Shown here: in pieces, positions 6,731 to 55,992 of the stretch | Numbering within the stretch: the stretch's first letter is position 1 | Layout: each line of letters begins with the position of its first letter | DNA from: a bacterium | GTDB taxonomy: Bacteria > JAAXHH01 | DNA: 64,000 nucleotides | Direction: 5' to 3' | Assembly (NCBI GenBank): GCA_965117045.1 | Contig: OZ220749.1 | Coordinates: 2,309,817-2,373,816 of the forward strand | Notes under the pieces: model-generated | What the model was told of the DNA's origin: nothing | The model's input: only the letters and a program-made list of their open reading frames with translations | Databases searched by the model: none | Program-made: the position numbers and the translations under genes

Positions 6731-6811
6731 TGTCGGTCTCCGGTAAGTTTCATGATTTCAGTAATTTCGCCCGTTTTCTCCACGCGTCGTCAGGCGGTGC
6801 TGCAACTGCCG

Positions 6812-7600
6812 TCAGGCGGCACTCCATCCGCCGTCGACCATCAACACGGAACCGGTCGTAAAGGATGCCTGGTCGGAAGCCAGGTACAGGATGGCTTGCG
6901 CCACTTCTTCAGGCGTACCGAAACGGTCCATGGGGTGCTTTCTCTTCAGCCGTTCGTACATGGCGGCATGGGCCTGCACGGATTCCGTCATGGGGGTATC
7001 CACCCACCCCGGCGCTACGGCATTGACCCGAATCCCGCGATCTGCGAACTCGACGGCCAGGACACGCGTCAACTGGTCAAGTCCCGCCTTGGAAGCGCCA
7101 TAGGCCGCCGACTTCTTCATGCCCGACTGTCCGAGGATCGAGCTGACGTTGACGATACTCCCGGCGCCCCGGGAAACCATCCCCGGCAGGACCGCGCGAA
7201 TGAGCCGGAACGCTCCCGACAAGTTGGTCCCGATAATCTGGTCCCAGATTTCGTCAGTGGTTCTTTCGGCGTCCATCAATGGGCCGGTGCCCGCGTTGTT
7301 GACCAGCACGTCGATCTTCCCAAAGGTGGCCGTCGTCTGGTCGACCATCCGCTGGCAATCTTCGGTGATGGCCACATCCCCGGAAACGGCCAAAGCGCTT
7401 CCGCCATTGGCCTCTATGGCGGTTACGACTTCATCCAGCGGGGCCTTCCTGCGACCCGTGACGCAGACGTCCGCGCCTTCTTCGGCAAGAAGCTTCGCCG
7501 TAGCGGCCCCGATCCCCGTTCCGCCGCCCGTAATAAGCGCGACGCGCCCTTCCAGTTTCAATGCCGGCTCTCCTGGAGTGTGTGCCCGGTCAGCGGCCAT
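6812..7600 (-). CDS. SDR family oxidoreductase
   Basis: TGGGTGIGAATA is the Gly-rich NAD(P) motif, NNAG is present, and Y..SK (AYGASKAG) is the catalytic pair. Confidence 0.8.
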   Translation of the reverse strand: MAADRAHTPGEPALKLEGRVALITGGGTGIGAATAKLLAEEGADVCVTGRRKAPLDEVVTAIEANGGSALAVSGDVAITEDCQRMVDQTTATFGKIDVLVNNAGTGPLMDAERTTDEIWDQIIGTNLSGAFRLIRAVLPGMVSRGAGSIVNVSSILGQSGMKKSAAYGASKAGLDQLTRVLAVEFADRGIRVNAVAPGWVDTPMTESVQAHAAMYERLKRKHPMDRFGTPEEVAQAILYLASDQASFTTGSVLMVDGGWSAA

Positions 7601-10421: not shown

Positions 10422-11153
10422 ATGAAGCTGGAAGACGCTAAGGCCCATCTCGACGAACACGGTTACGTCGTACTCAAAGAGGCGTTGAATCCGGAGCAGG
10501 CCAATGCCCTGCGTGACCGCTCGGCCGAGTTGGCCGCGGCGGAAAAGGCCGATGGGGAACACGTCTACTTCGATGGACAGGCGCAGCGGGTGTGGAACCT
10601 GGTCAACAAGGGCCGCATCTACGAGGAGATGATCCAACTGCCGCAAGTGCTCGCGCTCCACGAACACCTACTGGGCGACGACTGTATCTTAAGCAGCTTT
10701 ACCGTCAATCTCATCGGCCCGGGCGCACCGGCCGGCGGCCTGCACGTCGACTTCCCGCTGGGACGATTCCCTCAGCCTGCGCCGCCGTTCGCCTTCTGCT
10801 CCAACACGATTTTCGTACTCGACGACTTCACGCCCGAGAACGGGGCCACGCGGATCGTGCCGGGCAGCTACAAGCGCGGCACCCCGCCCGATCCGGAGAA
10901 GGAATACGACGACGTCATCCAACTGGATGCCCGCAAAGGCGATATCGTCATCATCCATGGCGCGACCTGGCACAGCAGCGGCGCCAATCGCACCAGTGAG
11001 GAACGAATGATCCTGCTGGGGTTCTTCTGCCGCTCGTTCATGAAACCGCAGCAGGACCAGTTCAGGCTGGCGGACCCCGAGGTCGTCAAGCGGGCGACGC
11101 CGACCCTGAAGCGCCTGCTGGGATTCGAATCGCAATCGGGCTTGCGGGCCTGA
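10422..11153 (+). CDS. Phytanoyl-CoA dioxygenase (PhyH) family protein
   Basis: LHVDFP...HGATWHSSGANRT, the HxD...H triad typical of PhyH. Confidence 0.6.
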   Translation: MKLEDAKAHLDEHGYVVLKEALNPEQANALRDRSAELAAAEKADGEHVYFDGQAQRVWNLVNKGRIYEEMIQLPQVLALHEHLLGDDCILSSFTVNLIGPGAPAGGLHVDFPLGRFPQPAPPFAFCSNTIFVLDDFTPENGATRIVPGSYKRGTPPDPEKEYDDVIQLDARKGDIVIIHGATWHSSGANRTSEERMILLGFFCRSFMKPQQDQFRLADPEVVKRATPTLKRLLGFESQSGLRA

Positions 11154-11156
11154 ACC

Positions 11157-11234
11157 GGCGGACCTGGACCGGCAGTATGCCAGCAGGCCTGGGGCGGCGG
11201 ACCTGGACCGGCGGTATGCCAGAAGGCCTGGGCC
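11157..11234. repeat. 2 x 39-bp direct tandem repeat immediately after the PhyH stop codon
   Basis: ggcggacctggaccggc(a/g)gtatgccag(c/a)aggcctggg(g/c)c appears twice, read directly from the sequence. Confidence 0.7.
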
Positions 11235-11353
11235 GGCAAATTGCCCGCTGATTTTCGCCCACGGGTCCGATCCTGTGGTCTCGAGCCCGTAGTACGCCCG
11301 TCGTCCAGTTCGCAACTCGATCATCCCCTTCATCCTCAAAAGAAAGATCACAC

Positions 11354-15943: not shown

Positions 15944-16232
15944 ACCCGCAAGGCAGATTGATTTCTCGAGGACGCCTACGCCATCGTCTCCGATGTATGG
16001 GTTCTACGAATGTTCGATGATGTAGAAACCTTTGACTTTTGCTTGGCGAGGCTACCAATCGCGAAATTGCCTTTGAAGTCGCTTACACTTCACCTACATA
16101 ACTATGAAAACCGCAAGTAATGGATTTTGTAGTTTCGTTTGGCCGTGAAACAGTCATGAGCTTGCCTGCAATTGCGGATCACATTCATAGTTCCCTATGG
16201 CGGTATTCTGCTAATTGCATTTGGACTAGGTA

Positions 16233-17309: not shown

Positions 17310-17494
17310 AGTCACTGTATGGTGAAGTTATCCCGATTTTGTAGATGGTATAGAGTTGGAATTCAGGACGACAATGAAGTAAGATCAGTACTGGATAATT
17401 ACAAGTTAATATCCTACAATGTGGAAGATGTATTGGAACAAAATGGTAGGTTCTTTTCGTTTGCCTTCGCAATAGTGTAAGTCAGGGAAATACA

Positions 17495-19663: not shown

Positions 19664-19782
19664 CATCTGATCCCAAAATTCGTTTTGCGGATCCGCCACC
19701 TTCCGATGTAACTCCCAACACTTTCCTCTGTCTGTCACTGGCTTATACCTTCCTTACATTTCAAAAAACCTGCATCCTTTCA

Positions 19783-20520
19783 TCAGCTTGACGACAGAAT
19801 CACACTAGCCCTCGATAGAAGAGATGAAATGAAGTTGTTGAACGTAAGCTCCTCAGCTGGTTCGCTATAATCACCTTTCGTCCCAGTTATCCGATCCGAC
19901 AACAGAAAACATGCACCGTCATACAGTCGTTCACGTAAGAGCTTTGTTAACAGAATTTCATACCGCTCAGCGTAGGAGGCGTTTCTAAACTCGGGAAATA
20001 CTGAAAAGTGCGGTTGATGAACCTTAACGGGACTGGTCGATTTTACGGCATGTTCTAACAGCATCAGATAACCAAGCCAAGGACGTGTTGAAGGCTTGAA
20101 CGCTCCCTCTCGATATGCTGCCCAAAAATCAGTTGCATTGCCGATTGCTTCTTCTGTGCGATTGTTGAAGTTGTTTCCGAAAGATGGCCCCACCTGAGAT
20201 TTCAATTCCACCCCAGCTACAAGTATACCATCCGCGACTATTAGCAAGTCCCATTTTTTTTCAGCTCGATACCACCCGGGCAGTACCATCTTCTTCTGGT
20301 GATATATCATGGTATTCGAGATTCCAATTCTATTGAGAGCTTCCTTTATAACTTCAGCAAACCCATGTAATTGAGCTCCTCCGGTGACAGCGGCTCGTGC
20401 CCCAGTATCACGGACACCAGAGAAGGTACCCTGTGCCTGAGATTGGGAAGTTCGCGTATTCCAGAAATAACTGACAGCCCGTCGAATCTCGTCGTCAAAA
20501 TCTGCCGAATAGCTAGGCAT
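19783..20520 (-). CDS. Type II restriction endonuclease (PD-(D/E)xK), family unassigned
   Basis: DLLIVADGILVAGVELKSQ contains the PD...ExK core. The gene is 7 nt downstream of a DNA methyltransferase gene on the same strand. Confidence 0.5.
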   Translation of the reverse strand: MPSYSADFDDEIRRAVSYFWNTRTSQSQAQGTFSGVRDTGARAAVTGGAQLHGFAEVIKEALNRIGISNTMIYHQKKMVLPGWYRAEKKWDLLIVADGILVAGVELKSQVGPSFGNNFNNRTEEAIGNATDFWAAYREGAFKPSTRPWLGYLMLLEHAVKSTSPVKVHQPHFSVFPEFRNASYAERYEILLTKLLRERLYDGACFLLSDRITGTKGDYSEPAEELTFNNFISSLLSRASVILSSS

Positions 20521-20526
20521 TCAAGT

Positions 20527-21567
20527 TCACTCCAATATTCCATTTCGAATCAATGCTGAACCGAATAGGGATGAGGCCGACTGACAAAGGCGGTTGTACG
20601 CAAAGTCGAAGTAGTCAGAATCAATCTCAAAACCGATGCTATTTCTCCCCCATTTTGCAGCAGCAACTAACGTCGTACCCGTACCCATAAAAGGGTCCAA
20701 AACAGTATCGCCTACAAAACTAAACATCCGAATCAGTCGTTCAGAAACCTCAAGTGGGAACGGGGCTGGGTGGTTCCTTGTCGACGCGCCCGATATTCCC
20801 GTCCAAATCTGTTGAAACCACTTGTTATGATTTTCAACTGAAATCACACTTAGGACCCGGGCGCTAATACTTGGGGACCTGTAACCTCCTGGTTTTCGTT
20901 CCATAAGTACAAACTCAATATCGTTTTTTATGATTGCCCCAGGTTCATATGGTTTTCCGAGAAAACGAGACCCTCGTTCGACTTCGTAGGCGGCATTTGC
21001 TATTTTGTGCCAAATAATGGGAGCTAGATTGTCAAACCCTATATCGCGACAATGTTCTTGGATAGAGGAATGTAGAGGGATCACCGTGTGGCGCCCGTTG
21101 TTTTTACGACGAGAAACACATACATCACCAACAATACATACCAGTCGACCGCCAGGTACTAGCGCACGATAACATTGAGACCAGACCTTATCTAATTCCT
21201 TTAAAAACCTATTGTAACTGAGGAAATTACCAAGTTGGCCGTTGCGGACGGGATATTCCTTGAGATTCCAGTATGGTGGAGATGTTACAACGAGATGAAC
21301 ACTTTCCTTTTCAAGTGCAGACGCTAGACGGGCGTCACCCAGCCAAAGACTATGATTAGTAGGGATATTTTGTACAGCCTGCTCGATTTCTTTCGTATGC
21401 CGCGTGTTACTTGCGATACGTGGTATTTCTTTCTGAGGGTTTTTCAAATTACGTAGGGTACTTGGAACGTAAGGCGCAAGGTCTGCGGACAGAGTTGAAT
21501 TCTGTTCTTTTGAGGGATTTGGGGAGAAAGAAGTACACATTCTTAAGCTGGCCTTCGTCATAGTCAC
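20527..21567 (-). CDS. Beta-class N4-cytosine/N6-adenine DNA methyltransferase
   Basis: Motif IV VVTSPPYWN precedes motif I FMGTGTTLVAAAKWGRNSIGFEID. This circularly permuted order is the beta class, and SPPY suggests N4C. Confidence 0.85.
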   Translation of the reverse strand: MTMTKASLRMCTSFSPNPSKEQNSTLSADLAPYVPSTLRNLKNPQKEIPRIASNTRHTKEIEQAVQNIPTNHSLWLGDARLASALEKESVHLVVTSPPYWNLKEYPVRNGQLGNFLSYNRFLKELDKVWSQCYRALVPGGRLVCIVGDVCVSRRKNNGRHTVIPLHSSIQEHCRDIGFDNLAPIIWHKIANAAYEVERGSRFLGKPYEPGAIIKNDIEFVLMERKPGGYRSPSISARVLSVISVENHNKWFQQIWTGISGASTRNHPAPFPLEVSERLIRMFSFVGDTVLDPFMGTGTTLVAAAKWGRNSIGFEIDSDYFDFAYNRLCQSASSLFGSALIRNGILE

Positions 21568-21641
21568 TGATTTTTGCTATAGGATTTCAAGGCACTCACC
21601 ATACACAATTGAGATACGTTCAGTAGACTTCAGATACAAGT

Positions 21642-24600
21642 CTACTCATTTACAGAAAAGTCCATCGGACCTCTGTAGGTATAAGCAATTGAAGTTTCTC
21701 CACATACACGCGCTGTTAAAACGCCGTCAGGCTGACAACTTATTTTAGATTTTGACATACCGAGTGACTCAAAAGTGGGTGACAGAACCTCACATTGGCC
21801 ATTTCCCGCTATTCTCAGTCTTACGATATCGTCCAATCGAGGCGTAGTAGGTCCATGCCATATTACAGGGATTTCTCCAGAATGAACCGACCACAACAAC
21901 CTATCAGCAGGCACATGATGATTAACAAATTCCAACCAACGACTATGACTGTCGGTAGTCGGCCAGTTTTTGTCTTGGCTTAAAGTCAATACGTCAGGTG
22001 ATCTCAACCATTCTTGCAACTCGCGCGCATTGGTAAAATCAGCATCGGTGTCGGATACTGCCTTGATCGCGGCTAATCGGGACGTAAAGCCAGCCTGCAT
22101 CAATCGAGCTGCACATGGTTTAAGTGTACCTCTTTCCAAACAGGAACCTAAATCTCTTGTCTCTAACTCGTCTATATTATATGTGTCGTGCCCAACAGTT
22201 ATAGTATCCTCGTTGGCAACCGCACGAACTCGCACGGCATCAACAGCCCATGCTAGTTTGTAGACAACACCATTCTCGATGAATCGAAGTATATCATCAG
22301 TTTGGTTAACACTATAACAAGTGAGAGATTCTCCTAGTAGCCAAAGTCTTAATACATCACGCCAGTTGCTAAGATGAGGGTCAGGAACGAACGGTTCGAT
22401 CTCAAATAGCCGTTCTCCTAATTCTAGTATTGCGTCGACGGCTCGATCATTATCCTTATCAACAATAGCTGCATTCGCCACAATCAGTAATGGGTTAAGT
22501 TCTGTAGCAATTGCATCCATGTATTGACCGGATGCCAAACCTACTCCCGCCAGAAAGTAACCTCGTCGCTGTGCTTTACTGCTCTGCATCCAGATTGTAT
22601 TGGCGCGACCAACCAATGCAGCCTTCAAGAGTGTCTGATGACTTTCTTTTTTACGCGCTATCCGTTTTTGCCACAAAGAAGACGACAGTAACTGATCAAG
22701 GCGCATTGACAATTCTTCAACTGGGATATCTTCTTCACCAACTAGACTAAATATCGCGGTATCCAATACAGGTAGGTACTGATTCCACTGTGCGGCGTAT
22801 CGGTTTGTGGTTTTAGTACTCTCTCTTGGAACAACCGGAAAATCCCACGCCTCAGAGTTATTAAGTACGTAGTCGGTTAGTTCCTGTATATCTGGTTTTC
22901 CAAGAGCAACATGTAGTCGCTTCAAGAATATCATAAGAAGCTCAAATAACCCACTTTCGATATCGTGACCACCCTCTTTCGCTAGAAGCCCAGACCACTC
23001 TTGTCTGGATCGTGTGTGGTTTTTGAAAACTGGGTAAAGAATCAACCCTTCTACATCAACAAATGCTCTCCCTGCACGCCCGACTATGTTATGAAAGTCT
23101 GAAGCCTCAATTATCTTCCACCCACCATCCCTGAAATGGTGAATACTGTGCATTACAACTGCGGTCGCACTCAGGTTAAGTCCTTGTGCAAGAGTGGGGG
23201 AAGAAATCGTCACTTTAAGTGCGCCACTCCGTAGAAGGCGTTCCATTTCAATTCTAAAAGGTGTTGGTAACGCTCCATGGTGAATAGCGACACCGAGTTT
23301 TAGGCACCTAAGGATAGGATGATCACTACCAAGCCATTCCTGTCCAATACTCAAGACATCATCAAGTATGCACTCATCCACGTCAAGAGCGGATTCTATG
23401 AATCCCTTAGATTCAAGATCAATAATTGCATCTGCGTAGGGAGTAACGGAATTCCGTTGAGGACAGTAAATCAGAACCGACTGTTTATCTTCTAACAGAC
23501 GCCACGCTGTCGCGATGGCTAATTCTCTTTGGTCTCTTGGAAATGGTTCTGTCCGCCTTCCACGTAGTGGTTTTCTTTCCCTAAAGAACGTGGGCACGAA
23601 TGGTCGTTCTCCACCAACCCTTAGATCGAGGCGGGCCCGCCTGTCGCGCCAAATCACTTCACCGAAACGCTGCCGAGTAGGCCGCCAGTCGGACTTGAGC
23701 GCCACACCTTGATAACCTTTTCTTATCCAACTAGTAAAGTCATCGAGCTTGTTACCATCTGGTAGTATCGCTGACAGACAGATGATCCTTCGTTGAGTCG
23801 CGTCTTCCCTATTCAGTAGACGTTGAATCTGAATCTCATACCGAACCTCACGCTCACCGAGACCAATCATATGACCTTCGTCAAGTACAACAAGGCCCAC
23901 GTCATTGAGTATTGTAGGATCGTTTCGTAACGCAAAATCAAGTTTTTCAGGCGTTGCCACTACTATATCACGCTTAAGGAGAGTATCTTCTTCAAAGCCA
24001 CTCGTTCCCACACTCCCATATAGTCCGGAGACGGAGTATCCTAATGGGCCAAACGTGTTTTGAAGTGTGGACTCCGATTGTGCGGATAACGCGCGAAGCG
24101 GAGTTACAAAAACAACACGCTTACCGTCGCTCAGGCATCGAAGAATACATAGTTCTGCAATACGTGTTTTGCCGGCGCTTGTTGGGAGGGACACAACCAA
24201 GTTGTCTGAAGTATCAACAGCACGACGTGCTCCTTCGATCTGTGAAGGCCAAAGTTCGATTTCCGCTTTCGACCTACGACAGAGCAAAGCGATGAACATA
24301 CTGCGTGCCGCGAGCCATGAGGGGTTCTCACCATCAGGAAGGTCTTGGGGAAGCAGGTTATGAAAACTCGCCTGCCAAAGATCGTCAAATAGTTGGATAG
24401 CCAACCGAAAGCACCACCACTGCGGTACAAAATTCATTTCCGTAGCAACTCGCAATCCTGTCTGTAACTCTTCACGAGCCCTTGTCTCGAGTGCCTTCTC
24501 CCCTGTCTCAATAGCAAGAAGAAAGTAACATAGACCTGAATAAAACTGATCACAGAGCGCTAGATTCAGTGCGACAAGAACCGATTCCTCAAACTGATCG

Positions 24601-25163
24601 CTCGGTGCATCGGCACCAACAGTTGGTTCCTGAGAGGACAGGAACTCAACAAGTCTCTCATCCGAGGCTTCCCCTCTGGCTTTCCATTCGGTGATTTCGT
24701 CTTCAAGCTGATTAAAGTTCCTAAGAATAAGGAAAGATAAACCTCGTTCAATTTGCGACAGATTTGAACTGTGAATTGATTTTATCAGTAAAGAATACGC
24801 CCGGGCTGAAGAACGTCCAAGGTGGTAAGCAGCAGCGGCTAATATCCGTAGAAATCCACGTTGTGGATCGTCGGGGTCACCATTTGCCACGACCGCTTCG
24901 ATTGCCTCTCCAGACTGGATAAACGCACGGGACGCTAGCTGCTCATCACCGCCTTGTGTTCGGAGGTGAATGGCATGTAGCAAGAGTGCATCACCGTAAA
25001 CTATTAAATCATAAGACAGCATCTCCGTAAACGCTGGTGCGCCACGGGGTAGAACACCATCTCGCCAAATCAACGATCGTGCTTGGCCTCGTGCCAGAAG
25101 TTGTGCACGAAAGGCGGGCTCGAGCGCTGAAGCAACTACACTCTCTAGTTGTTCAAGATTCAT
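21642..25163 (-). CDS. Large SF2 DExH (DEGH) helicase, HamB-like, 1173 aa
   Basis: Walker A TSAGKTRIAE, motif II VVLDEGHMIG and motif VI HNIVGRAGRAF. About 300 aa of helical N-terminus and about 450 aa of C-terminal extension. The start overlaps the upstream 257-aa ORF by 11 nt. Confidence 0.85.
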   Translation of the reverse strand: MNLEQLESVVASALEPAFRAQLLARGQARSLIWRDGVLPRGAPAFTEMLSYDLIVYGDALLLHAIHLRTQGGDEQLASRAFIQSGEAIEAVVANGDPDDPQRGFLRILAAAAYHLGRSSARAYSLLIKSIHSSNLSQIERGLSFLILRNFNQLEDEITEWKARGEASDERLVEFLSSQEPTVGADAPSDQFEESVLVALNLALCDQFYSGLCYFLLAIETGEKALETRAREELQTGLRVATEMNFVPQWWCFRLAIQLFDDLWQASFHNLLPQDLPDGENPSWLAARSMFIALLCRRSKAEIELWPSQIEGARRAVDTSDNLVVSLPTSAGKTRIAELCILRCLSDGKRVVFVTPLRALSAQSESTLQNTFGPLGYSVSGLYGSVGTSGFEEDTLLKRDIVVATPEKLDFALRNDPTILNDVGLVVLDEGHMIGLGEREVRYEIQIQRLLNREDATQRRIICLSAILPDGNKLDDFTSWIRKGYQGVALKSDWRPTRQRFGEVIWRDRRARLDLRVGGERPFVPTFFRERKPLRGRRTEPFPRDQRELAIATAWRLLEDKQSVLIYCPQRNSVTPYADAIIDLESKGFIESALDVDECILDDVLSIGQEWLGSDHPILRCLKLGVAIHHGALPTPFRIEMERLLRSGALKVTISSPTLAQGLNLSATAVVMHSIHHFRDGGWKIIEASDFHNIVGRAGRAFVDVEGLILYPVFKNHTRSRQEWSGLLAKEGGHDIESGLFELLMIFLKRLHVALGKPDIQELTDYVLNNSEAWDFPVVPRESTKTTNRYAAQWNQYLPVLDTAIFSLVGEEDIPVEELSMRLDQLLSSSLWQKRIARKKESHQTLLKAALVGRANTIWMQSSKAQRRGYFLAGVGLASGQYMDAIATELNPLLIVANAAIVDKDNDRAVDAILELGERLFEIEPFVPDPHLSNWRDVLRLWLLGESLTCYSVNQTDDILRFIENGVVYKLAWAVDAVRVRAVANEDTITVGHDTYNIDELETRDLGSCLERGTLKPCAARLMQAGFTSRLAAIKAVSDTDADFTNARELQEWLRSPDVLTLSQDKNWPTTDSHSRWLEFVNHHVPADRLLWSVHSGEIPVIWHGPTTPRLDDIVRLRIAGNGQCEVLSPTFESLGMSKSKISCQPDGVLTARVCGETSIAYTYRGPMDFSVNE

Positions 25164-25926
25164 GCACGTTCATTGCTTTCTTAAAGACATTCTCGATAAA
25201 CTTTTGGTGTTTTAGTACCTGCAGTCCTACTGCTCTCTGCATAATTGGTCCGTTATACTTCTTAAGATCTGTGGTTAAAAAGGATTCAGGTTCATTTCCA
25301 GTAAAAGTAAATAACAAGTGCTCAACGTGACTGTGCCTTATGTCCTTAACTAATTGAGCAACTGTTATCGCATCAGAAAGGACGGTGTCACCGAGTTCCA
25401 ATAGACGTTCAGCAACAAAGCTAAGCGCGTGACCGGAGGGTAAACCGTTGTCGCGGTCTAAACATTGTCGCGCTTCTGTAATTGTGCGCTTGTTCAGAAA
25501 TTTACGGCTTTTAGCTTCAGTTTTTAAGAACCGAAGTGGAGTGCCGTCACGTGGGTCTTTGATTCCAATTACATCATCGCCTCGCATAGGCATCTCGCGT
25601 GAATCCTTCCATCGCAGACGCTTTATGGGGACGACATAGTCGGTCTTTTCGCCAATATATTCGGTTGCAAGTATCTCCCCCAGATCTCCGGACCGGATTG
25701 GTTTTGAGTGAGGGAGTTTTTGTTGTAACAGATTCGCTACACCTTCCTTATCAAGCAATTTGAATACCTGCTGAAGACGCTGCTCACTGACGTAATGCTG
25801 CGGAAGAACAGCAGCTGTGCATCGACACCCCGCCTCGACGGAATTTTCGTCTGCTCTGAGTAGTTGTAACGCATGAGTGTTGATGTTCTTGTTCTGTTCA
25901 TGCGTCCAATCAGATAGGAATAGCAC
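25153..25926 (-). CDS. Small putative PD-(D/E)xK protein, HamA (DUF1837)-like
   Basis: GDDVIGIKD...RFLKTEAK fits D-x(19)-E-A-K. It is translationally coupled to the helicase. Assignment to DUF1837 is from memory of Hachiman architecture, not from a search. Confidence 0.4.
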   Translation of the reverse strand: MLFLSDWTHEQNKNINTHALQLLRADENSVEAGCRCTAAVLPQHYVSEQRLQQVFKLLDKEGVANLLQQKLPHSKPIRSGDLGEILATEYIGEKTDYVVPIKRLRWKDSREMPMRGDDVIGIKDPRDGTPLRFLKTEAKSRKFLNKRTITEARQCLDRDNGLPSGHALSFVAERLLELGDTVLSDAITVAQLVKDIRHSHVEHLLFTFTGNEPESFLTTDLKKYNGPIMQRAVGLQVLKHQKFIENVFKKAMNVHES

Positions 25927-26069
25927 CTAGCAAAAAACCTTGTAGCGCATTATTTTTCGTTTAGAGTTGAACAAAACCCTTCGGAAACGGATACCGACTT
26001 GGTATTTTGGGTTTCCAAGTAACAAATAAGGAATCTTCATTTCGGGCGATTGTACTATAAGCAAATCTA

Positions 26070-35125: not shown

Positions 35126-36003
35126 CCACCCGATTCACTTCCGATTATCATCCCTTCGTGACCCCTGACCAGGTCAACGCGCTTCCGAGCAAGCCCGCGG
35201 AGGTCCGATCCAGGTACGGGCCAGCGCCTGCCCAGTTCGGTGAATTGCGGCTGCCGTCCGGGCGAGGCCCTCATCCTGTGGCCGTGGTCATGCACGGGGG
35301 ATGCTGGCTGTCGATTTACGCCGACCTGCGCAACGCGGACGCGCTGGCCGACGCCTTGCGGGACGAGGGCATCGCGACCTGGAACGTGGAATACCGTTGC
35401 GTGGACCAGGAAGGCGGCGGATGGCCGGGGACTTTTCTGGACGCCGGGCACGCGGTAGACCACCTGCGTGCGCTGTCCGCCGATCACGACCTGGATCTGG
35501 ACCGCGTGATCACCATCGGTCATTCGGCGGGCGGTCACCTGGCGCTCTGGACGGCCGCGCGCCACCGGCTGCCCGGGGAAAGCCCGCTCTGGACTGCGGA
35601 CCCGTTGCCGTTGCGTGGGACGGTCGTACTGGCCGGTCCTGGCGATCTGAAGCGTTTCGCTCCCCATGCGGATGCGGAATGCCGGCAAGGCGTCGTATCG
35701 GAACTGCTTGGCAGCCCTGGCGTATCATCCGGAGAGATCGATGAGCCTGTGGAAGAGCGGTTTCGATGCGGATCGCCCGTGGAACTGCTGCCCCTTGGTG
35801 TGCGGCAGGTCATGATCAGCACGCAACACGACTGGGTCGTGCCGCCCGATCTGGGTGAGGCCTACGCGGCCGCGGCCCACGCGACCGGCGATCCCGTCGA
35901 TCACATCATCATCCCGAACGCCGGTCACCACGAACCCATGGTTCCCGATTCCGTGGCATGGCCCGCTGTACGCCAGGCCGTGCAATCGTTACTCGGCACC
36001 TGA
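35122..36003 (+). CDS. Alpha/beta hydrolase (esterase/lipase-type)
   Basis: HGGCW is the oxyanion HGG motif and GHSAGGHLA is the nucleophile elbow GxSxG. Likely GTG start at 35122 overlapping the previous stop as GTGA; the track ORF starts at 35080. Confidence 0.6.
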   Translation: MTTRFTSDYHPFVTPDQVNALPSKPAEVRSRYGPAPAQFGELRLPSGRGPHPVAVVMHGGCWLSIYADLRNADALADALRDEGIATWNVEYRCVDQEGGGWPGTFLDAGHAVDHLRALSADHDLDLDRVITIGHSAGGHLALWTAARHRLPGESPLWTADPLPLRGTVVLAGPGDLKRFAPHADAECRQGVVSELLGSPGVSSGEIDEPVEERFRCGSPVELLPLGVRQVMISTQHDWVVPPDLGEAYAAAAHATGDPVDHIIIPNAGHHEPMVPDSVAWPAVRQAVQSLLGT

Positions 36004-36056
36004 GACGATCGGAGCCTGAGACGATCGGCGCCTGAGACGATCGGCGCCTGAGACTG
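35999..36056. repeat. 3.5 x 16-bp tandem repeat (cctgagacgatcggNg) spanning the stop codon of the hydrolase gene
   Basis: Read directly from the sequence. The stop TGA at 36001-36003 lies inside copy 1. Confidence 0.7.
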
Positions 36057-36984: not shown

Positions 36985-37376
36985 GACGAAGCCGACCCGG
37001 CACGCCCCGGAGGAGGTGGACGCCTACCTGGCCTCGCTTCCGGATGACTTCCGCATCACGCTGCAGCGACTGCGGGCACGGCTGGCGGAACTGGAAGGTG
37101 TTAAAAAGGAGGACTCAACGTGACAGAACGCAGACCCCGTGCCCAAATGCCCGCATTCGTGAAGGCATTGGTCGCCATGATGTTCGGCATCCTTGCCGGC
37201 GGCGCGTTCAATTTCCTGCTGGGCGATCAAGGCGCAGACACGCCCGCCTTCGCGATCTACGGTGGGGCATTGGCGCTTGTGATCTACATCGTTCAGGCCA
37301 GGCTTCGATCGCGGAAAAAGTAACTACTGGGGCCTGGGCTGGCGACCCTGGCCTGGTAACCCTGACCTGGCAACCG

Positions 37377-45539: not shown

Positions 45540-47942
45540 TCACCCCGCCCGCAACGCATCTACCGGGTTGGCCGTGGCGGCCTTCAGCGCGTGGTATCCC
45601 ACCGTCAGCCAGGTGATGAGAAGCGCCGCAAGGCCGGCAGACACGAAAATCCATATACTCAGTTCGATGCGGTAGGGGAAGTTGTCCAGCCACGCCTGCA
45701 TCACGTAATACCCAGCCGAAGCGCCGATGACGAACGCAAGCGTAAAGAGCCTGGTGAATTCCTTCGACAGCAGCAGGACAACGTTTGAAATCGTAGCCCC
45801 GAGGACCTTGCGTACACCGATCTCCCTGGTCCGCTGCTCCGCCATGTAGGACGCGAGTCCCAGAAGTCCCAGGCAAGCGATCAGAATGGAAAGCACCGCG
45901 CCGGCGATGAAGACGGATCCCAGCCTTTGCTCGGCGGCATATTGTCGCTCGAGTTCCTGGTCCAGGAAGTAGAAATCCATGTCGGGGTGGCCTGGATACG
46001 TTTCCCGCCACTGGTCCCGAAGGATTTCAAGTCCGTGGGGAAGGTTCTGTCCCCGCAGCCTGACCACCATGAACCTGCCTTCATTCCAGTACATTACGAT
46101 CAATGGCTCAATGCGTTGATGCAGAGACTGTTGGTGAAAATCACGCATGACGCCAACGACATTCCTGGGTGGATAGGTATCGGGTGCGCCTGGATAACTG
46201 AAGGTCTTACCGATGGGATCTTCCCATCCGAAGGTTCGCGCGGCGGTTTCGTTGATCATCACGGCGTTGTTGTCCGAGACGAATTCACGCGATAACGAAC
46301 GGCCGGACTTGATTTCGATGTCCATAGTTTCCACGAAGTCGAAGTCCGCCCAGATCGTGGAGACCAGGGGCGACTGATCCTCGGGGAATCCATCGGGTTG
46401 AATCAGATTGAACGAGGTTGGCGTACCCGGCACACTGGCCGATGAGCTTACGTTTACGATTTCCGGATACTGCATGGCTCCGCGCTTATAGGCGGGATAG
46501 CCGAGCACGGCCGCTTGATCGGGAAGTCGTATGACCACCAGGTGTTCTTTGTCGAAGCCAAGCTTCTTGCTCTGTATGTACTCCACCTGATCTAGCACCA
46601 CGGCGGTACCAATGATCATGATGATCGAAACAACGAACTGGAAGATGATCAGCGCCTTTCTCAGCACCGATTGAGAAACGCCGGCATTCAACGCGCCACC
46701 CACCACCGCCGCCGGCCTGAAGGACGCGAGGACGAAGGCGGGGTACCCGCCGGCAGCGAGTCCCGTAATAAAAGCGATGGCCGCCAGGGCGGGAAGCAAC
46801 CAGGCGGATTCGTAATTCATCTCCAGCACTTTGCCGGACAACTGGTTGAACTGTGGCAGAAGCAGGTGGACCAGCCCCAGCGCCACGGCCAGCGCAACGA
46901 AAGAGAACAAGACCGACTCGCCGACAAACTGCCTGAACAGTTGAACCCGGTGGGCGCCCAGTACCTTTCGAATGCCGACCTCCTGCGTCCGCCGGGCGGC
47001 GCGGGCAGTGGAAAGGTTCATGAAATTGAAGCAGGCGAGGAGCAGTATGAAAGCGGCCACCGAGGAGAAGATGTAAACGTACCGGATATCGCTGTTCGCT
47101 TCGATCTCGTTATTCAGATTCGAATGAAGGTGGATATCGGTGAGAGATTGCAGATTGGGTCTCATTTCGACCCCGACGGACTTGAGGCGCTCGCCGAAGT
47201 ACTTGTCCATAAACTGGGGGAGTTTTCTTTCCAGATCGCCGGCTGTATATCCTTCCTTGAGCAGGAGGTAGGTATACATGGTGGAATTCAGGTTCTGTAT
47301 CGTGGTCGGCTCGAAATATATGCCCGCCGCGGCCGTTGTGGCAAAGGAGGCCAAAAAGTCCGCTCGGAAATGCGAGTTCGTCGGCAGATCCCGCATGATC
47401 CCCGTGACCGTAAACATGTACTTGTCGTCCGCGGCGATCACTTTGCCGATGGGGTTTTCATCTCCGAAGTACTTCCTAACCATGGATTCTGAAACCACCA
47501 CGGCATGGGGCTCGGCCAGGGCGGTTTTCGCATTGCCCTGAACGAGCGGGATGGTGAAAATGTCAAAGACCGATGAATCCGCCACGACAAAGTGTTTCTC
47601 ATATGACCGCTTATCGCCGTACCGAACGAGCCAACGTGAGTTCGGGGGCTTAAGCCGGGTGAAATGCTCGATTTCGGGGTATTCCATCGCCAGTACCGGC
47701 GCCCAGGAGGGAGGGGTAAACGCCGACTCGTTGATCTTGCCATCCGCGGTGTCGGTTTTCACCAGGCGGTAGATTCTATCTTTCTTCTCATGGTGCTGGT
47801 CGTAGCTGAGCTCGTCCTGCACGTAGAGCATGATTAGAATGCAACTGGTGATGCCGACGGCCAGTCCCAGCACGTTGATCGCCGAATAGCCTTTGTACCT
47901 GAGCAGGTGCCTTATCGCGGTGGCCAGGTAGTTTCTGAACAT
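45540..47942 (-). CDS. FtsX-family ABC transporter permease (800 aa), paralog of 40368-42770
   Basis: MFRNYLATAIRHLLRYKGYSAINVLGLAVGIT has the same architecture as the other 800-aa FtsX permease. Confidence 0.8.
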   Translation of the reverse strand: MFRNYLATAIRHLLRYKGYSAINVLGLAVGITSCILIMLYVQDELSYDQHHEKKDRIYRLVKTDTADGKINESAFTPPSWAPVLAMEYPEIEHFTRLKPPNSRWLVRYGDKRSYEKHFVVADSSVFDIFTIPLVQGNAKTALAEPHAVVVSESMVRKYFGDENPIGKVIAADDKYMFTVTGIMRDLPTNSHFRADFLASFATTAAAGIYFEPTTIQNLNSTMYTYLLLKEGYTAGDLERKLPQFMDKYFGERLKSVGVEMRPNLQSLTDIHLHSNLNNEIEANSDIRYVYIFSSVAAFILLLACFNFMNLSTARAARRTQEVGIRKVLGAHRVQLFRQFVGESVLFSFVALAVALGLVHLLLPQFNQLSGKVLEMNYESAWLLPALAAIAFITGLAAGGYPAFVLASFRPAAVVGGALNAGVSQSVLRKALIIFQFVVSIIMIIGTAVVLDQVEYIQSKKLGFDKEHLVVIRLPDQAAVLGYPAYKRGAMQYPEIVNVSSSASVPGTPTSFNLIQPDGFPEDQSPLVSTIWADFDFVETMDIEIKSGRSLSREFVSDNNAVMINETAARTFGWEDPIGKTFSYPGAPDTYPPRNVVGVMRDFHQQSLHQRIEPLIVMYWNEGRFMVVRLRGQNLPHGLEILRDQWRETYPGHPDMDFYFLDQELERQYAAEQRLGSVFIAGAVLSILIACLGLLGLASYMAEQRTREIGVRKVLGATISNVVLLLSKEFTRLFTLAFVIGASAGYYVMQAWLDNFPYRIELSIWIFVSAGLAALLITWLTVGYHALKAATANPVDALRAG

Positions 47943-48120
47943 GGCGCTGTCCCGGCAAGCTCGACTATCCCGGTCGTTCGGGGTATTCGGCGTGTAATGA
48001 TGCGGAAGCGTCAGGCCCGTATAATCCCGTCTGTTAGACGATTCTCATCGGACAAATGTCAAATATAACTAAAACGACTCGTGGTGTGTATCCGCGATTC
48101 GCTGCCGGCGGCCGTTCGCC

Positions 48121-48206
48121 GCGGCCACAGCTTGTGGTTCCCGGCCACAGCTTGTGGTTCCCGGCCACAGCTTGTGGTTCCCGGCTACAGCTTGTAGTTC
48201 CCGGCG
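48121..48206. repeat. 4 x 20-bp tandem repeat (ccggccacagcttgtggttc) overlapping the 3' end of the minus-strand gene
   Basis: Three perfect copies plus one degenerate copy. The degenerate copy encodes the C-terminus ...AGNYKL and the stop. Each unit contains the hairpin CCACA-gct-TGTGG. Confidence 0.8.
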
Positions 48207-49456
48207 TTGATGGTGAGTGTTCCGTCGTCGTGCTCCTCGTGCTCTTCTTGCTCCCCCTGCGCTTCATCGTCACTTTCCGCCTCTTCGGCCGCCTCGTGCA
48301 TCGTGCCTTCATTGACGACCATTCTTGCTTCTACCGCGCTCATCTGGTCCGGAAAGCAGGTTATCGTACCCCAGTTGTAAACTGCGACCAGACGATCATA
48401 CAGCATCCTGGCGTCCACGTCTTCATCGATGGTCACGTTTCCCGAATTGTACAACGTGGCGGTCCCGTCGATCAGATCCAGGCGCGACTGACGTAGCGTA
48501 AGATCGGTCTCCACGGCCCAGAGAGCGCCGCCATAGAAGATGACATCGGTGTTCAATGTATCGCATATGCCCGAGAAGACTTCGCCCAGCGGTTCCGGAC
48601 ACAGGACCCTGCCCGCGCAGACGAGTCTGTCGAGCGCCCTGGCCAATGCGTCTGCGTCCACATTCTCCTGAATGGTGACGTTGCCGCTGGCGTAGACCTT
48701 TCTCCCCTTCCATGACCGGATGCTTCCGGCGGTCAGCGACAGGTCGCGTTCGACCAGTTCATGTTCTTCAGGCACGACGGCCGTCTCTGGAGTACGGGTC
48801 CCGGAATCATACTTGGAACGAAGCACACGGACGTTTTCCGCGCAGCAGAGGACATTGCCCCTGACGTGGACGGTATTGATCTTCCGGTCGAGCGCGTCGT
48901 CCGGCACAGGCTCCGGAATCCGGAGACTCCCGGTGATGACAAGGTCCGCGCTATCGGCCAGCGATGCCAGATAGACTTCATCCAGCACGACGTCGCCGTG
49001 AACGAGTTGCGCAGAGGCCCTGTACGACGTGAGTTCGCCCATATTGGACGTCAGTTTGGTCGTAATCGGCCCGGCCACGTGCTCCGGATACAGGATGGTC
49101 CCCATGTTGATGATTTCACTCCATGATTCGTTCACTCCCTCGGCGGTGACATCCGGTTCCAGCGTGATGTTGCTCATGTTTATGACAAGAAACGGCTCTT
49201 CTCCGCCGGAAAACGCATCCCGGCCCATGATCTCATCTGACATGACCGTCTTCAGCCTGCCTTCTTTGGAGACCTCAATCACGTTTCCCAGGTTGTTGGA
49301 AAACATAGACAGATAGCCCCTGGTTTCCGGCGTCACGAGTACGTTGCCGGCATTGATATGCAAGATCCTGGACGCCACCTGTTCCGTGGTTTCCCGCATG
49401 TCCAGGTTACCGCAGTTTAGCCGAACTGAACGGGGGTCGCGTTCTTCGAGGTTCAT
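48185..49456 (-). CDS. Repeat-containing putative adhesin-like (DUF4097-like) protein, probable anti-sigma-factor partner
   Basis: Internal repeats (GNVLVTPE, GNVIEV, GNVTIQENVDADAL, GNVTIDEDVDARML) and an acidic tail. Immediately downstream of an ECF sigma gene. Start at ATG 49456 with AGGAGG upstream. Confidence 0.4.
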   Translation of the reverse strand: MNLEERDPRSVRLNCGNLDMRETTEQVASRILHINAGNVLVTPETRGYLSMFSNNLGNVIEVSKEGRLKTVMSDEIMGRDAFSGGEEPFLVINMSNITLEPDVTAEGVNESWSEIINMGTILYPEHVAGPITTKLTSNMGELTSYRASAQLVHGDVVLDEVYLASLADSADLVITGSLRIPEPVPDDALDRKINTVHVRGNVLCCAENVRVLRSKYDSGTRTPETAVVPEEHELVERDLSLTAGSIRSWKGRKVYASGNVTIQENVDADALARALDRLVCAGRVLCPEPLGEVFSGICDTLNTDVIFYGGALWAVETDLTLRQSRLDLIDGTATLYNSGNVTIDEDVDARMLYDRLVAVYNWGTITCFPDQMSAVEARMVVNEGTMHEAAEEAESDDEAQGEQEEHEEHDDGTLTINAGNYKL

Positions 49457-49554
49457 CGTTTTCCTCCTGTGCTTTGGCATGCATCCGCAATCGGGAATTT
49501 ACAACTGGGCCGCCTCGGCATCGTACTTTCCGTGTATTCGATGCCGGGGCATCG

Positions 49555-52525: not shown

Positions 52526-53214
52526 ACATCACCGCAATTTCCTTCGACGTCGACCAGACCCTGATCGACACGGACCGGATCATCATGCGATCCATGGAGT
52601 CCGTTCGCGATGAACTGATTAAGCGCGTACCGGGCTTGCGAACCAGGAGCCTGACGGTAGAGGAGATGTGGTCTATTCGCGATCGGGAAGAGAAAGGTTA
52701 CACGGGAAATGTGAGAGACTTCGACGAGATCCGGCGGAGGTCTTTCCTCCGGATGCTTGATCATGTCGGATACACGGGCCCCGATCTCTCGACGCGTCTC
52801 AACGAAGTATACCTGGAGCACCGGTACAACGACCTCGAGCCTTACGAAGATGTCGTCCCCATGCTCAATGCCCTCGGTCCGTGCTTCAAACTCGGTCTGC
52901 TGTCGAACGGCAACAACTACCCGGAGTACTTCGGACTCGCGGATCGTTTTGACTTTTCCGTCTATGCCCAGGATATCGGTATTGAGAAGCCGGATCCGAG
53001 GACGTTTCAGATTGCGGTCGAACAGTCGGGTTGTAGTCTGGACGAACTGCTACACGTGGGAGATTCGCTGGAATCCGACATCGAAGGCGCGCAGGCCGTC
53101 GGGATACGCGCGGTGTGGCTGAACCGCCATGGCGCGTCCAACGATACGGGTATCAAACCCGACTATGAAATCCGCTCATTAACCGAACTGCCTGGCCTGT
53201 TGAGTTTGGGTTGA
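52522..53214 (+). CDS. HAD-family hydrolase
   Basis: Motif I FDVDQTL, motif III K, and motif IV GDSLESD. TTG start overlapping the higA stop. Confidence 0.65.
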   Translation: MNITAISFDVDQTLIDTDRIIMRSMESVRDELIKRVPGLRTRSLTVEEMWSIRDREEKGYTGNVRDFDEIRRRSFLRMLDHVGYTGPDLSTRLNEVYLEHRYNDLEPYEDVVPMLNALGPCFKLGLLSNGNNYPEYFGLADRFDFSVYAQDIGIEKPDPRTFQIAVEQSGCSLDELLHVGDSLESDIEGAQAVGIRAVWLNRHGASNDTGIKPDYEIRSLTELPGLLSLG

Positions 53215-53286
53215 GACGAATTCGAGACGTATTCACGTGCAGCCAAAGTCAAGAAACATCATTCGGACTGGGAACATCATTCGGAC

Positions 53287-55212: not shown

Positions 55213-55992
55213 TCACGAATCCTCACTCAGGTAGTCGTAAACAATCCGTGCATATCCCTCGGAATAGCTGCTCTCCATGTGGAAAGCGTCTCCGTATTCG
55301 AGCGGCGCCAGCGGCGTGAGGTCGCACCGCGGGGCGACACCGAGATCGATAGTGCCCTTCCCCTGCGCGGCCGAATGCACTTCCACGTTCTGGGCCGTTT
55401 CGGTGCAGTCGATCAACTGCTTTATCGCAGACCCCGGACCGTCTGCCCGGGGGATGATCTTCAACCGCCAGGCCGGGGTAAGGGCCGGCATGGCGTCGTG
55501 CGCGTCGTGCGCGTCGTGCGCGTCGTGGGCGTCGTGGGCGGCACGGACGAACATGGTCGAACTGATCTTCAACACGGGCACACCGCCATAGGAAGTTTCC
55601 GTCACCATGGACCGATCGTCATGGGTCACCTTCATGTCCGCGTACACCTTCGGCGTCCCGTAAATCTCCCGGCCCGCGGCGATGCCGGCGGGGCCGTTAT
55701 GGAATACATGGGAACAGTAGTACCCGGTTTGATCCCGGAAATGGCATTTCATCACGATAAACGACTCTTCGAAGGACCCGTAGTGCTCACAATCGGGTAC
55801 CTCCAATCCGGAGGCCACGCACAGCCCGTCCTCCGCCGCTTCCAGTGGCTCAGGCAGGAAACGCTGAACCGCGGCCGGTTCGGCGTGGAAGAAGACAAAC
55901 TGGAACCGCACGTTTCGGTAGACCGCCGGCAGAGGCGGATAGAAGGGGTTGGACGCCGGTATGTTCCAGCCGTCTTCGTGTTTGAGTCTCAT
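55213..55992 (-). CDS. Acetoacetate decarboxylase (ADC) family protein with internal (HDA)5 repeat
   Basis: ADC-like N-terminus FYPPLPAVYRNVRFQF and a Lys-containing C-terminal half. The HDAHDAHDAHDAHDA insertion is encoded by a 9-bp x5 repeat. Confidence 0.55.
   Translation of the reverse strand: MRLKHEDGWNIPASNPFYPPLPAVYRNVRFQFVFFHAEPAAVQRFLPEPLEAAEDGLCVASGLEVPDCEHYGSFEESFIVMKCHFRDQTGYYCSHVFHNGPAGIAAGREIYGTPKVYADMKVTHDDRSMVTETSYGGVPVLKISSTMFVRAAHDAHDAHDAHDAHDAMPALTPAWRLKIIPRADGPGSAIKQLIDCTETAQNVEVHSAAQGKGTIDLGVAPRCDLTPLAPLEYGDAFHMESSYSEGYARIVYDYLSEDS
55493..55537. repeat. 5 x 9-bp perfect/near-perfect in-frame tandem repeat (gcgtcgtgc) inside the ADC-family gene
   Basis: Read directly from the sequence; it encodes (His-Asp-Ala)5 on the minus strand. 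Confidence 0.8.

What the first reader, a model, noticed from the sequence alone, without database searches (positions are those of the whole stretch)
48121..48206. 20-bp x4 tandem array derived from and overlapping a gene 3' end, each unit a small hairpin
The last about 20 nt of the minus-strand gene, encoding ...AGNYKL plus the stop, are reiterated three more times downstream with two point differences. Each unit contains the CCACA-gct-TGTGG stem-loop. Similar 3'-terminal tandem arrays occur at 35999-36056 (16 bp x3.5, with the stop codon inside copy 1) and 11157-11234 (39 bp x2). This looks like a recurrent replication-slippage hotspot or an undescribed 3'-end element in this genome.
Basis: seen in the sequence. 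Interest (0 to 1): 0.5.

Follow-up and report, generated by a model that had tools for sequence, protein, structure and literature searches.

The report
Strain-variable tandem duplication at gene end
The last 20 bases of a gene, stop codon included, were copied head-to-tail three more times by replication slippage; this is a recent, strain-variable and probably harmless repeat, not a new genetic element.

Summary
A 20-bp x 4.2 array lies at 48122-48205 (TRF score 154; best of 40 shuffled windows 67). Copy 1 is the conserved end of a 423-aa gene (...INAGNYKL plus TAG).

The array is young and unstable:
- An independent assembly of the same strain has 4 copies.
- A 96%-identical strain has 3 copies with different variants.
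- All 12 species-level relatives examined have one copy.

Two outgroups keep the likely substrate: GCCGGG direct repeats 20 nt apart, flanking the palindrome CTACA-AGC-TGTAG. That fits slipped-strand duplication.

The two "point differences" are the two sides of one stem base pair (T-A to C-G). The other strain carries the T/G intermediate. Quasipalindrome template switching, or weak selection for the hairpin, could explain this.

The unit is not dispersed. There is no Rfam match and no terminator on the gene strand.

Other arrays in the window that contain a stop codon are real, but share no sequence with this one. The 16-mer array varies from 1 to 4.9 copies among relatives.

Arrays overlap stop codons more often than random placement predicts (8 of 23 against 3.2 expected, p = 0.009). 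That count includes the arrays that prompted the idea; without the window it is 4 of 16 against 2.1 (p = 0.15). Purifying selection alone can explain it.

Verdict: an ordinary variable tandem repeat, of low interest.

The parts
48183..48202 (-). Copy 1, the source copy: GGGAACTACAAGCTGTAGCC. It holds codons G-N-Y-K-L, the stop codon TAG (48185-48187) and CC. Hairpin CTACA-AGC-TGTAG.
   Evidence: The C-terminus is conserved in 17 homologues.
48163..48182 (-). Copy 2: GGGAACCACAAGCTGTGGCC. Relative to copy 1 it has T to C and A to G, the two sides of one stem pair.
48143..48162 (-). Copy 3, identical to copy 2.
48123..48142 (-). Copy 4, identical to copy 2. It is followed by GCGGCGAACGG..., the ancestral sequence downstream of the stop.
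48200..48205 (-). Proximal GCCGGG (codons Ala-Gly). It recurs at every unit junction. In outgroups L002 and L004 the same hexamer (CCGGG after TAG) directly follows the stop, giving direct repeats 20 nt apart.
   Evidence: In the fold of the 29-mer, CCGG:CCGG pairs at the base of the hairpin.
48185..49456 (-). Source gene: 423 aa counted from M9 (the ORF extends to 49480). No Pfam domain. Conserved family found next to an ECF sigma factor.
48095..48122 (-). GC-rich stretch (GCGGCGAACGGCCGCCGGCAGCGAATCG) that follows the stop directly, or after a short insert, in relatives. The array was inserted between the stop and this stretch.
48021..48068 (-). Conserved promoter-like block upstream of the MacB/FtsX permease gene (45540-47942, minus strand). 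It is untouched by the array.
   Evidence: Conserved in L002, L004, L006, L009 and L010.
35993..36054 (+). Second array containing a stop: 16 bp x 3.9 at the end of the BD-FAE hydrolase gene (stop 36001-36003). Relatives have 1, about 1.9, 3.9 and 4.9 copies.
11147..11237 (+). Third array: 39 bp x 2.3 starting 4 nt before the stop of the PhyH gene (11151-11153). Its ends carry the 13-nt near-repeat GGCCTGRRCCGGC.
6788..6835 (-). Fourth case: 22 bp x 2.2 (80% identity). Copy 1 holds the last 6 codons and the stop (6812-6814) of an SDR gene.

Best explanation
This is a recent, lineage-specific tandem duplication of variable copy number (VNTR/minisatellite type). It covers the last 20 nt of a protein-coding gene and was made by slipped-strand mispairing during replication.

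**Substrate.** The ancestral sequence was GCCGGG-AACTACAAGCTGTA-GCCGGG. Two 6-nt direct repeats lay 20 nt apart and bracketed a 13-nt palindrome, CTACA-AGC-TGTAG. The palindrome arose by chance from the codons Tyr-Lys-Leu-stop. The CCGG cores of the two repeats can pair at the base of the hairpin. That brings the repeats together and would favour misalignment.

**Why it survives.** The first copy keeps the whole C-terminus and the stop codon, so the protein is unchanged. The extra copies sit in the tolerant stretch between the stop and the next gene's promoter. The duplication is therefore neutral or nearly so, and it expands and contracts freely.

**The paired change.** The T-A to C-G change in the downstream copies most likely arose in three steps:
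1. an A to G substitution in a distal copy;
2. a T to C correction of the resulting quasipalindrome by intramolecular template switching;
3. amplification of that copy.

**What is shown.** Tandem structure, the source copy, the derived state, copy-number polymorphism, and the presence of the direct-repeat and palindrome substrate in outgroups.

**What is inferred.** The slippage mechanism itself, neutrality, and the template-switch origin of the paired change.
For: 1. **Real and non-random.** TRF score is 154 against at most 67 in 40 shuffles.
2. **Copy 1 is the source.** I424 and N425 are invariant, and A426, G427, Y429, K430 and L431 are at least 90% conserved in 18 sequences. In the AlphaFold model this segment is the last, confident beta-strand.
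3. **The array is derived.** All 12 species-level relatives (L002-L013, 54-82% aa identity) have a single copy followed by the same GC-rich sequence that follows copy 4 in the window.
4. **The substrate exists in outgroups.** L004 reads GCCGGGAACTACAAGCTGTAGCCGGGG, and L002 reads ...TAGCCGGGTCGAACGG. The 29-mer folds with CCGG:CCGG at the base of the hairpin, -5.7 kcal/mol.
5. **It is polymorphic within one species.** The window and L024 (100% nt identity) have 4 copies: TAC/TAG once, then CAC/TGG three times. L001 (96.4% nt identity) has 3 copies: TAC/TAG, TAC/TAG with a G to A change at the junction, and TAC/TGG.
6. **The intermediate TAC/TGG exists in L001.** As DNA it does not form the hairpin (-0.5 kcal/mol), while CAC/TGG folds best (-3.8). 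Published work describes quasipalindromes being made perfect by template switching (PMC7202029).
7. **It is not a shared element.** The unit occurs nowhere else in the window. In the JGI scan it appears only as chance single hits. There is no Rfam hit.
8. **The other stop-containing arrays behave the same way.** The 16-mer array ranges from 1 to 4.9 copies among relatives. The relatives' loci hold similar arrays overlapping stop codons, such as L004 13875-13925 and L010 16725-16841.
Against: - Only one informative strain comparison exists for this array (3 against 4 copies). The JGI scan and the exact-protein look-ups found no further strains.
- The paired T-A to C-G change, with a T/G (U.G in sense RNA) intermediate, is also the classic signature of selection on an RNA stem. 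By my own estimate, the chance that two random substitutions hit both sides of one of the 5 stem pairs is about 5/190, or 0.03. Some non-random process acted, and selection cannot be told apart from template switching here.
- L004 has the full substrate but no duplication, so the substrate is not sufficient on its own.
- The excess of arrays at stop codons (8 against 3.2 expected) rests on my own crude gene calls over about 275 kb.
Confidence: 0.8

Rival explanations
1. The array is a selected structural element in the 3' UTR. Three extra small hairpins on the sense transcript would stabilise the mRNA against 3' exonucleases, or modulate read-through into the downstream permease gene. The slippage product would then have been kept, and improved, by selection.
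For: - The change is compensatory, U-A to U.G to C-G on the sense (minus) strand, and the wobble intermediate is seen in L001.
- The derived stem is stronger, -3.8 against -2.4 kcal/mol.
- The whole region folds better than shuffled sequence, z = -2.7.
Against: - The stems are only 5 bp, and individually they are not significant against shuffles.
- No U-tract follows, and no terminator was found on the minus strand.
- All 12 relatives lack the array, including five with the same downstream gene.
- Copy number is not fixed within the species.
- A repeat of palindromes will always give a low z-score.
Confidence: 0.1
2. The 20-bp palindromic units are binding sites (an operator- or iteron-like array, spaced about two helical turns apart) for a regulator of the downstream MacB-type permease promoter.
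For: - The units are dyad-symmetric with a 20-bp period.
- They lie about 55-140 bp upstream of a conserved promoter-like block.
- An ECF sigma gene is nearby, and the unit contains GGAAC, which I recall as the usual ECF -35 motif.
Against: - The sequence is dictated by the conserved codons G-N-Y-K-L.
- Relatives with the same promoter block and permease have no array.
- No ECF-type -10 motif follows GGAAC at the right spacing (read).
- The motif occurs nowhere else in the window.
Confidence: 0.04
3. DNA just past stop codons is a true mutational hotspot for tandem duplication in this clade, for example through polymerase stalling where translation and transcription uncouple. The excess of stop-containing arrays would then be mutational rather than a filter of selection.
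For: - 8 of 23 mostly non-coding arrays overlap a stop, against 3.2 expected (p = 0.009), while only 2 overlap a start against 3.8 expected.
- The window's top three TRF scores all overlap stop codons.
- Convergent spacers hold 8 arrays in 6.4 kb, against 7 in 12.4 kb for divergent spacers.
Against: - The test includes the arrays that prompted the hypothesis. Relatives alone give 4 of 16 against 2.1 (p = 0.15).
- A filter model predicts a similar share. Duplications inside genes or promoters are removed, while those that carry the stop in copy 1 are silent. By my rough estimate that gives 15-25% of surviving arrays.
- The same pattern is reported across 5374 prokaryotic genomes (PMC12418385).
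Confidence: 0.05
4. The array is an assembly artefact.
For: Short tandem repeats are a known source of assembly errors. The short-read contig L025 ends inside the array.
Against: - The identical 4-copy array appears in an independent ENA assembly (L024).
- A 3-copy allele with distinct variants appears in another sample's long contig (L001).
Confidence: 0.01

Closest known systems
Bacterial VNTR/minisatellite loci made by slipped-strand mispairing (the kind used for MLVA typing)
   Same: Head-to-tail units of 10-40 bp, mostly intergenic. Copy number differs between closely related strains. Outgroups lack the array. It arose between short direct repeats.
   Different: Copy 1 is the end of a coding sequence and carries the stop codon. 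The unit is itself a small palindrome. No phenotype or typing use is known.
Quasipalindrome-associated template-switch mutations (Ripley model; E. coli lacZ QP reporters, PMC7202029)
   Same: An imperfect inverted repeat (TAC...TGG, seen in L001) becomes a perfect one (CAC...TGG, in the window) through a single templated base change.
   Different: Here it is inferred from two natural alleles, not measured. Selection on an RNA stem would give the same outcome.
Enrichment of tandem repeats in prokaryotic intergenic DNA near start and stop codons (PMC12418385, NAR 2025)
   Same: Arrays concentrate downstream of stop codons and are rare inside coding regions.
   Different: That survey concerns repeat coverage near gene ends in general. 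It does not single out arrays whose first copy contains the stop codon.
REP/BIME-type dispersed intergenic palindromes, and intrinsic terminators
   Same: Small GC-rich hairpins located just after a stop codon.
   Different: There are no dispersed copies, no conservation, no U-tract, and only a weak 5-bp stem. The array is not a member of either class.

Membership tests
VNTR / slipped-strand tandem duplication | Head-to-tail copies of high identity, beyond chance | tested here: met
   TRF: 20 bp x 4.2, 96% matches, score 154. Best score in 40 shuffles was 67.
VNTR / slipped-strand tandem duplication | Copy number differs between close strains | tested here: met
   4 copies in the window and L024. 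3 copies in L001, which is 96.4% nt identical.
VNTR / slipped-strand tandem duplication | Derived state: outgroups carry a single unit | tested here: met
   All of L002-L013 have a single copy.
VNTR / slipped-strand tandem duplication | Short direct repeats at the unit borders of the ancestral sequence | tested here: met
   GCCGGG ... GCCGGG 20 nt apart in L004. L002 has GCGGGG/GCCGGG.
Quasipalindrome template-switch mutation | A base change that converts an imperfect inverted repeat into a perfect one, templated by the opposite arm | tested here: inconclusive
   The TAC..TGG (L001) and CAC..TGG (window) alleles fit the pattern. Neither the direction nor the mechanism can be proved from two alleles.
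Dispersed intergenic repeat (REP/BIME/MITE-like) | Many copies at unrelated loci in the genome | tested here: not met
   At up to 2 mismatches the only match outside the array is a chance-level one. The 10 JGI hits are single matches inside an unrelated coding gene. The whole genome was not available.
Intrinsic (Rho-independent) terminator | GC-rich stem-loop followed by a U-tract on the transcribed strand | tested here: not met
   No terminator-like site on the minus strand. The two plus-strand hits are the repeat junctions themselves.
Any Rfam RNA family | Covariance-model match | tested here: not met
   No match at E <= 1 in 47700-48400.
Operator / iteron array | Conserved together with the regulated promoter in relatives | tested here: not met
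   L002, L004, L006, L009 and L010 keep the promoter-like block and the permease but have no array.
CRISPR array | Repeats separated by unique spacers | tested here: not met
   The units abut directly, with no spacers.

The most novel reading that the evidence does not exclude
Arrays containing a stop codon would be more than survivors of selection. In this sponge- and coral-associated Gemmatimonadota/Latescibacterota clade, the first bases after stop codons would be a real duplication hotspot. The resulting hairpin arrays would then be tuned by selection, as in the U-A to U.G to C-G change, to act as variable 3'-UTR stabilisers or as spacers that set expression of the next gene.
Probability: 0.08. 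Interest if true: 0.45.

Novelty: new member of a known kind. Interest (0 to 1): 0.15.

Why it matters
It matters little beyond this genome.

- It is a clean natural example of a known process. A chance palindrome made by conserved terminal codons, flanked by 6-nt direct repeats, seeds a tandem duplication. The duplication is invisible to the protein because copy 1 keeps the stop codon.
- The two alleles may also show a quasipalindrome being perfected.
- In practice, loci like this are useful strain markers in metagenomes, and they are places where short-read assemblies break.
- They also caution against reading function into small hairpin arrays at the 3' ends of genes.

Tried and rejected
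- **JGI metagenome scan** with GGAACYACAAGCTGTRGCC, to find more strains. The 10 hits were all unrelated single matches inside a coding gene, so no strain data came from it.
- **Exact-protein look-ups.** The 431-aa ORF and P0040 were not on record. The 423-aa version was found.
- **Rfam** at a permissive threshold gave nothing.
- **Terminator scan** found nothing on the gene strand.
- **ECF promoter idea.** The unit contains GGAAC and an ECF sigma gene is nearby. I rejected this because GGAAC is forced by the Gly-Asn codons, no -10 motif follows at the right spacing, and relatives lack the array.
- **C-terminal extension or read-through idea.** Copies 2-4 have TGG where copy 1 has TAG. I rejected this because a 20-nt period shifts the frame, and the protein end is conserved and structured.
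- **A common element behind the three arrays.** I rejected this because the units share no sequence.
- **'Stop in all three frames' idea** for the 16-mers (TGA every 16 nt). I noted it, but the 20-mer array has lost its stops, so it is not general.
- **Assembly artefact.** Rejected.
- **PDB fold search** for the source protein gave no significant match.

Full report
**1. Observation**

The array is real. TRF reports 48122-48205 with period 20, 4.2 copies, 96% matches and score 154, the highest score in the window. In 40 dinucleotide-preserving shuffles of the window, the best TRF score averaged 45 and never exceeded 67.

On the minus strand the sequence reads ...ATC AAC GCC GGG AAC TAC AAG CTG TAG CC, then GGGAACCACAAGCTGTGGCC three times, then GCGGCGAACGG.... 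Copy 1 (48183-48202) therefore holds the last five codons and the stop (48185-48187) of the ORF 48185..49480. Copies 2-4 are identical to each other. They differ from copy 1 at two positions.

Those two positions are the partners of a single base pair in the 5-bp stem: C[T/C]ACA-AGC-TGT[A/G]G. The difference is one compensatory T-A to C-G exchange.

The hairpins are weak. DNA free energy is -2.4 and -3.8 kcal/mol, not significantly better than shuffles.

**2. Direction: the gene end is the source**

The ORF encodes a protein with no Pfam domain. It has 25 homologues in Gemmatimonadota-type metagenome genomes. Homologues start at M9, which gives 423 aa.

The terminus ...INAGNYKL is conserved family-wide. 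I424 and N425 are invariant, and A426, G427, Y429, K430 and L431 are at least 90% conserved. In an AlphaFold model (mean pLDDT 88), residues 422-430 form the final beta-strand of a beta/alpha solenoid, after a disordered acidic linker. The coding copy is therefore ancestral, and the downstream copies derive from it.

**3. Age and variability**

All 12 species-level relatives have one copy only (L002-L013, 54-82% aa identity; 10 of them came from the genome-contig scan). In those that keep the same spacer, the stop is followed, directly or after a short insert, by the GC-rich sequence (..CGAACGGCCGCCGGC..) that follows copy 4 in the window.

Within the window's own species:
- L024, an independent ENA assembly with 100% nt identity, has the same four copies.
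- L001, from another sample and 96.4% nt identical, has three copies: TAC..TAG, then (A)GGAAC TAC..TAG, then TAC..TGG.
- A short-read Logan contig stops inside copy 2.

The array is thus derived, recent, polymorphic in copy number and in variants, and not an assembly artefact.

**4. Mechanism**

Outgroup L004 reads GCCGGGAACTACAAGCTGTAGCCGGGG, and L002 reads GCGGGGACCTATAAGCTATAGCCGGGTCG. The ancestral unit was therefore bracketed by GCCGGG direct repeats exactly 20 nt apart. This is the classic substrate for slipped-strand duplication.

Between the repeats lies the 13-nt palindrome made by the codons TAC-AAG-CTG-TAG. Lineages with CTA for Leu have a broken palindrome. The 29-mer folds with the CCGG cores of the two repeats paired at the base of the hairpin (-5.7 kcal/mol). 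That juxtaposes the repeats.

I infer slippage between the GCCGGG repeats, followed by expansion and contraction.

The allele series is TAC/TAG, then TAC/TGG (L001, last copy), then CAC/TGG (window). This fits an A to G substitution in a distal copy, followed by T to C. Two processes would produce that second change:
- Quasipalindrome template switching, which makes imperfect inverted repeats perfect (PMC7202029).
- Selection for a stem, since the intermediate is U.G on the sense RNA.

By my own estimate, two random changes would hit one of the five stem pairs with probability of about 5/190. Chance alone is therefore unlikely, but the two mechanisms cannot be separated here.

**5. Tests for a functional element**

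- The 13-mer core occurs only in the array within the window.
- A scan of JGI metagenomes with the unit found 10 single, unrelated matches inside a coding gene.
- There is no Rfam match.
- There is no terminator on the gene strand.
- Five relatives (L002, L004, L006, L009, L010) keep the downstream MacB/FtsX permease and a conserved promoter-like block (window 48021-48068), but have no array.

These results argue against an operator, a terminator or a dispersed element.

**6. The other arrays**

The arrays at 35993-36054 (16 x 3.9) and 11147-11237 (39 x 2.3) overlap the stops of real genes, a BD-FAE hydrolase and a PhyH dioxygenase. The C-termini of both proteins sit at the family-typical position.

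The 16-mer array is a variable tandem repeat with a longer history:

| Locus | aa identity to window | Copies |
|---|---|---|
| L030 | 84% | 1 |
| L031 | 84% | about 1.9 |
| L026 | 92% | 3.9 (diverged) |
| window | - | 3.9 |
| L027 | 90% | 4.9 |

For the 39-mer, L029 has no array and L028 has a differently built repeat region.

Further cases:
- 6788-6835 (22 x 2.2) carries the last six codons and the stop of an SDR gene.
- 53213-53234 (11 x 2) overlaps the stop of a HAD hydrolase gene.
- 37333-37375 (14 x 3.1) starts 2 nt after the stop of a GNAT gene.
- In relatives, L004 13875-13925 (GGGTGAGGCCGTACAA x 3.2) has the stop of the permease orthologue in copy 1.
- L010 16725-16841 repeats 47 nt of a permease gene's 3' end.

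None of these units share sequence.

**7. Enrichment at stop codons**

I used my own crude gene calls (window: 58 genes, 89% coding) on the window plus 11 relatives' loci, about 275 kb in all. I considered arrays with TRF score of at least 50 and at most 50% coding.

| Set | Arrays | Overlap a stop | Expected | p |
|---|---|---|---|---|
| All loci | 23 | 8 | 3.2 | 0.009 |
| Window only | 7 | 4 | 1.06 | 0.012 |
| Relatives only | 16 | 4 | 2.1 | 0.15 |

The expected value comes from random placement at mostly non-coding positions. Start codons were overlapped by 2 of 23 arrays against 3.8 expected.

In tandem-oriented spacers, 6 arrays lie nearer the stop and 2 nearer the start (p = 0.14). Convergent spacers hold 8 arrays in 6.4 kb, against 7 in 12.4 kb for divergent spacers.

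The signal is consistent but modest, and the significant part includes the arrays that prompted the idea. A filter model explains it. Duplications inside ORFs are removed unless the period is a multiple of three. In line with this, seven of the nine fully coding arrays in the window with score of at least 46 have a period that is a multiple of three. Duplications in promoters and ribosome-binding sites are selected against. Duplications carrying the stop in copy 1 are silent. A published survey of 5374 prokaryotic genomes already shows tandem repeats enriched downstream of stop codons (PMC12418385).

**8. Verdict**

The slippage interpretation is supported. The 'undescribed 3'-end element' is not supported, and the 'hotspot' is only weakly supported. 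This is an ordinary variable tandem repeat with a well-resolved origin. It is a new member of a known kind and of low interest.

Noticed in passing
window 16000-26000: Low-GC island (41-48% GC against about 61% elsewhere) that looks like an acquired defence island. It holds HamA (25153-25926) with a DEAD/ResIII helicase of 1173 aa (21642-25163), which resembles a Hachiman system. It also holds an XhoI-type restriction endonuclease (19783-20520) with an N6/N4 methylase (20527-21567), and a NERD/SEC-C protein (17495-19663).
   Followed up: partly
window 48185-49456 (-): The source gene encodes a 423-aa protein with no Pfam domain, conserved in Gemmatimonadota/'Latescibacterota' MAGs. It follows an ECF sigma factor gene in every locus where neighbouring genes were listed. 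AlphaFold gives a confident model (pLDDT 88) of a beta/alpha solenoid. A disordered acidic, His-rich linker (399-411) precedes a final strand formed by the conserved INAGNYKL end. No significant PDB match was found; the best hits are weak LRR matches with TM below 0.2. It could be an ECF partner or anti-sigma-like protein.
   Followed up: partly
window 48021-48068 (-): Conserved intergenic block upstream of the MacB/FtsX permease gene: TTATATTTGACATTTGTCCGATGAGAATCGTCTAACAGACGGGATTA. It is shared with L002, L004, L006, L009 and L010. It contains TATATTTG, which resembles what I recall as the Bacteroidetes-type -7 motif TAnnTTTG, and a small CGTCT-AAC-AGACG hairpin.
   Followed up: no
window 48228-48265 (-), inside the same gene: In-frame 9/18-nt repeats (GAGGAGCAC-like) encode the acidic E/H-rich linker. 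Homologues differ here by indels of 3-9 residues (alignment columns 401-420), so in-frame slippage also acts a few codons upstream of the array.
   Followed up: no
window 12539-12690 (-): A 9-nt x 16.9 coding repeat gives a (PPE/PPD)n proline-rich linker in a Big_9 (bacterial Ig) domain protein, 12134-13231.
   Followed up: partly
L004 13875-13925; L010 16725-16841: Relatives have their own arrays containing a stop codon. In L004, GGGTGAGGCCGTACAA x 3.2 carries the permease stop TGA in copy 1. In L010, a 47-nt copy of a permease gene's 3' end (encoding NPVDALRYE plus the stop) is repeated 78 nt downstream.
   Followed up: partly
window 35993-36054; L004 13875-13925: In the two 16-nt arrays every unit keeps TGA. 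Because 16 is not a multiple of 3, three successive copies put a stop codon in all three reading frames after the gene. The 20-mer array does not share this feature, since its copies 2-4 have TGG.
   Followed up: no
L025 4125-4154; L024 3413-4947: The short-read Logan contig ends inside the array, so the repeat breaks k-mer assemblies. In L024, several genes are called shorter than in L001 (ADC 184 aa against 265, HAD 121 against 216), which suggests frameshift errors in that long-read assembly.
   Followed up: no
window 55493-55540 (-): A 9-nt x 5.3 repeat of 97% identity lies inside the coding gene 55213-55992. It is a young in-frame expansion.
   Followed up: no
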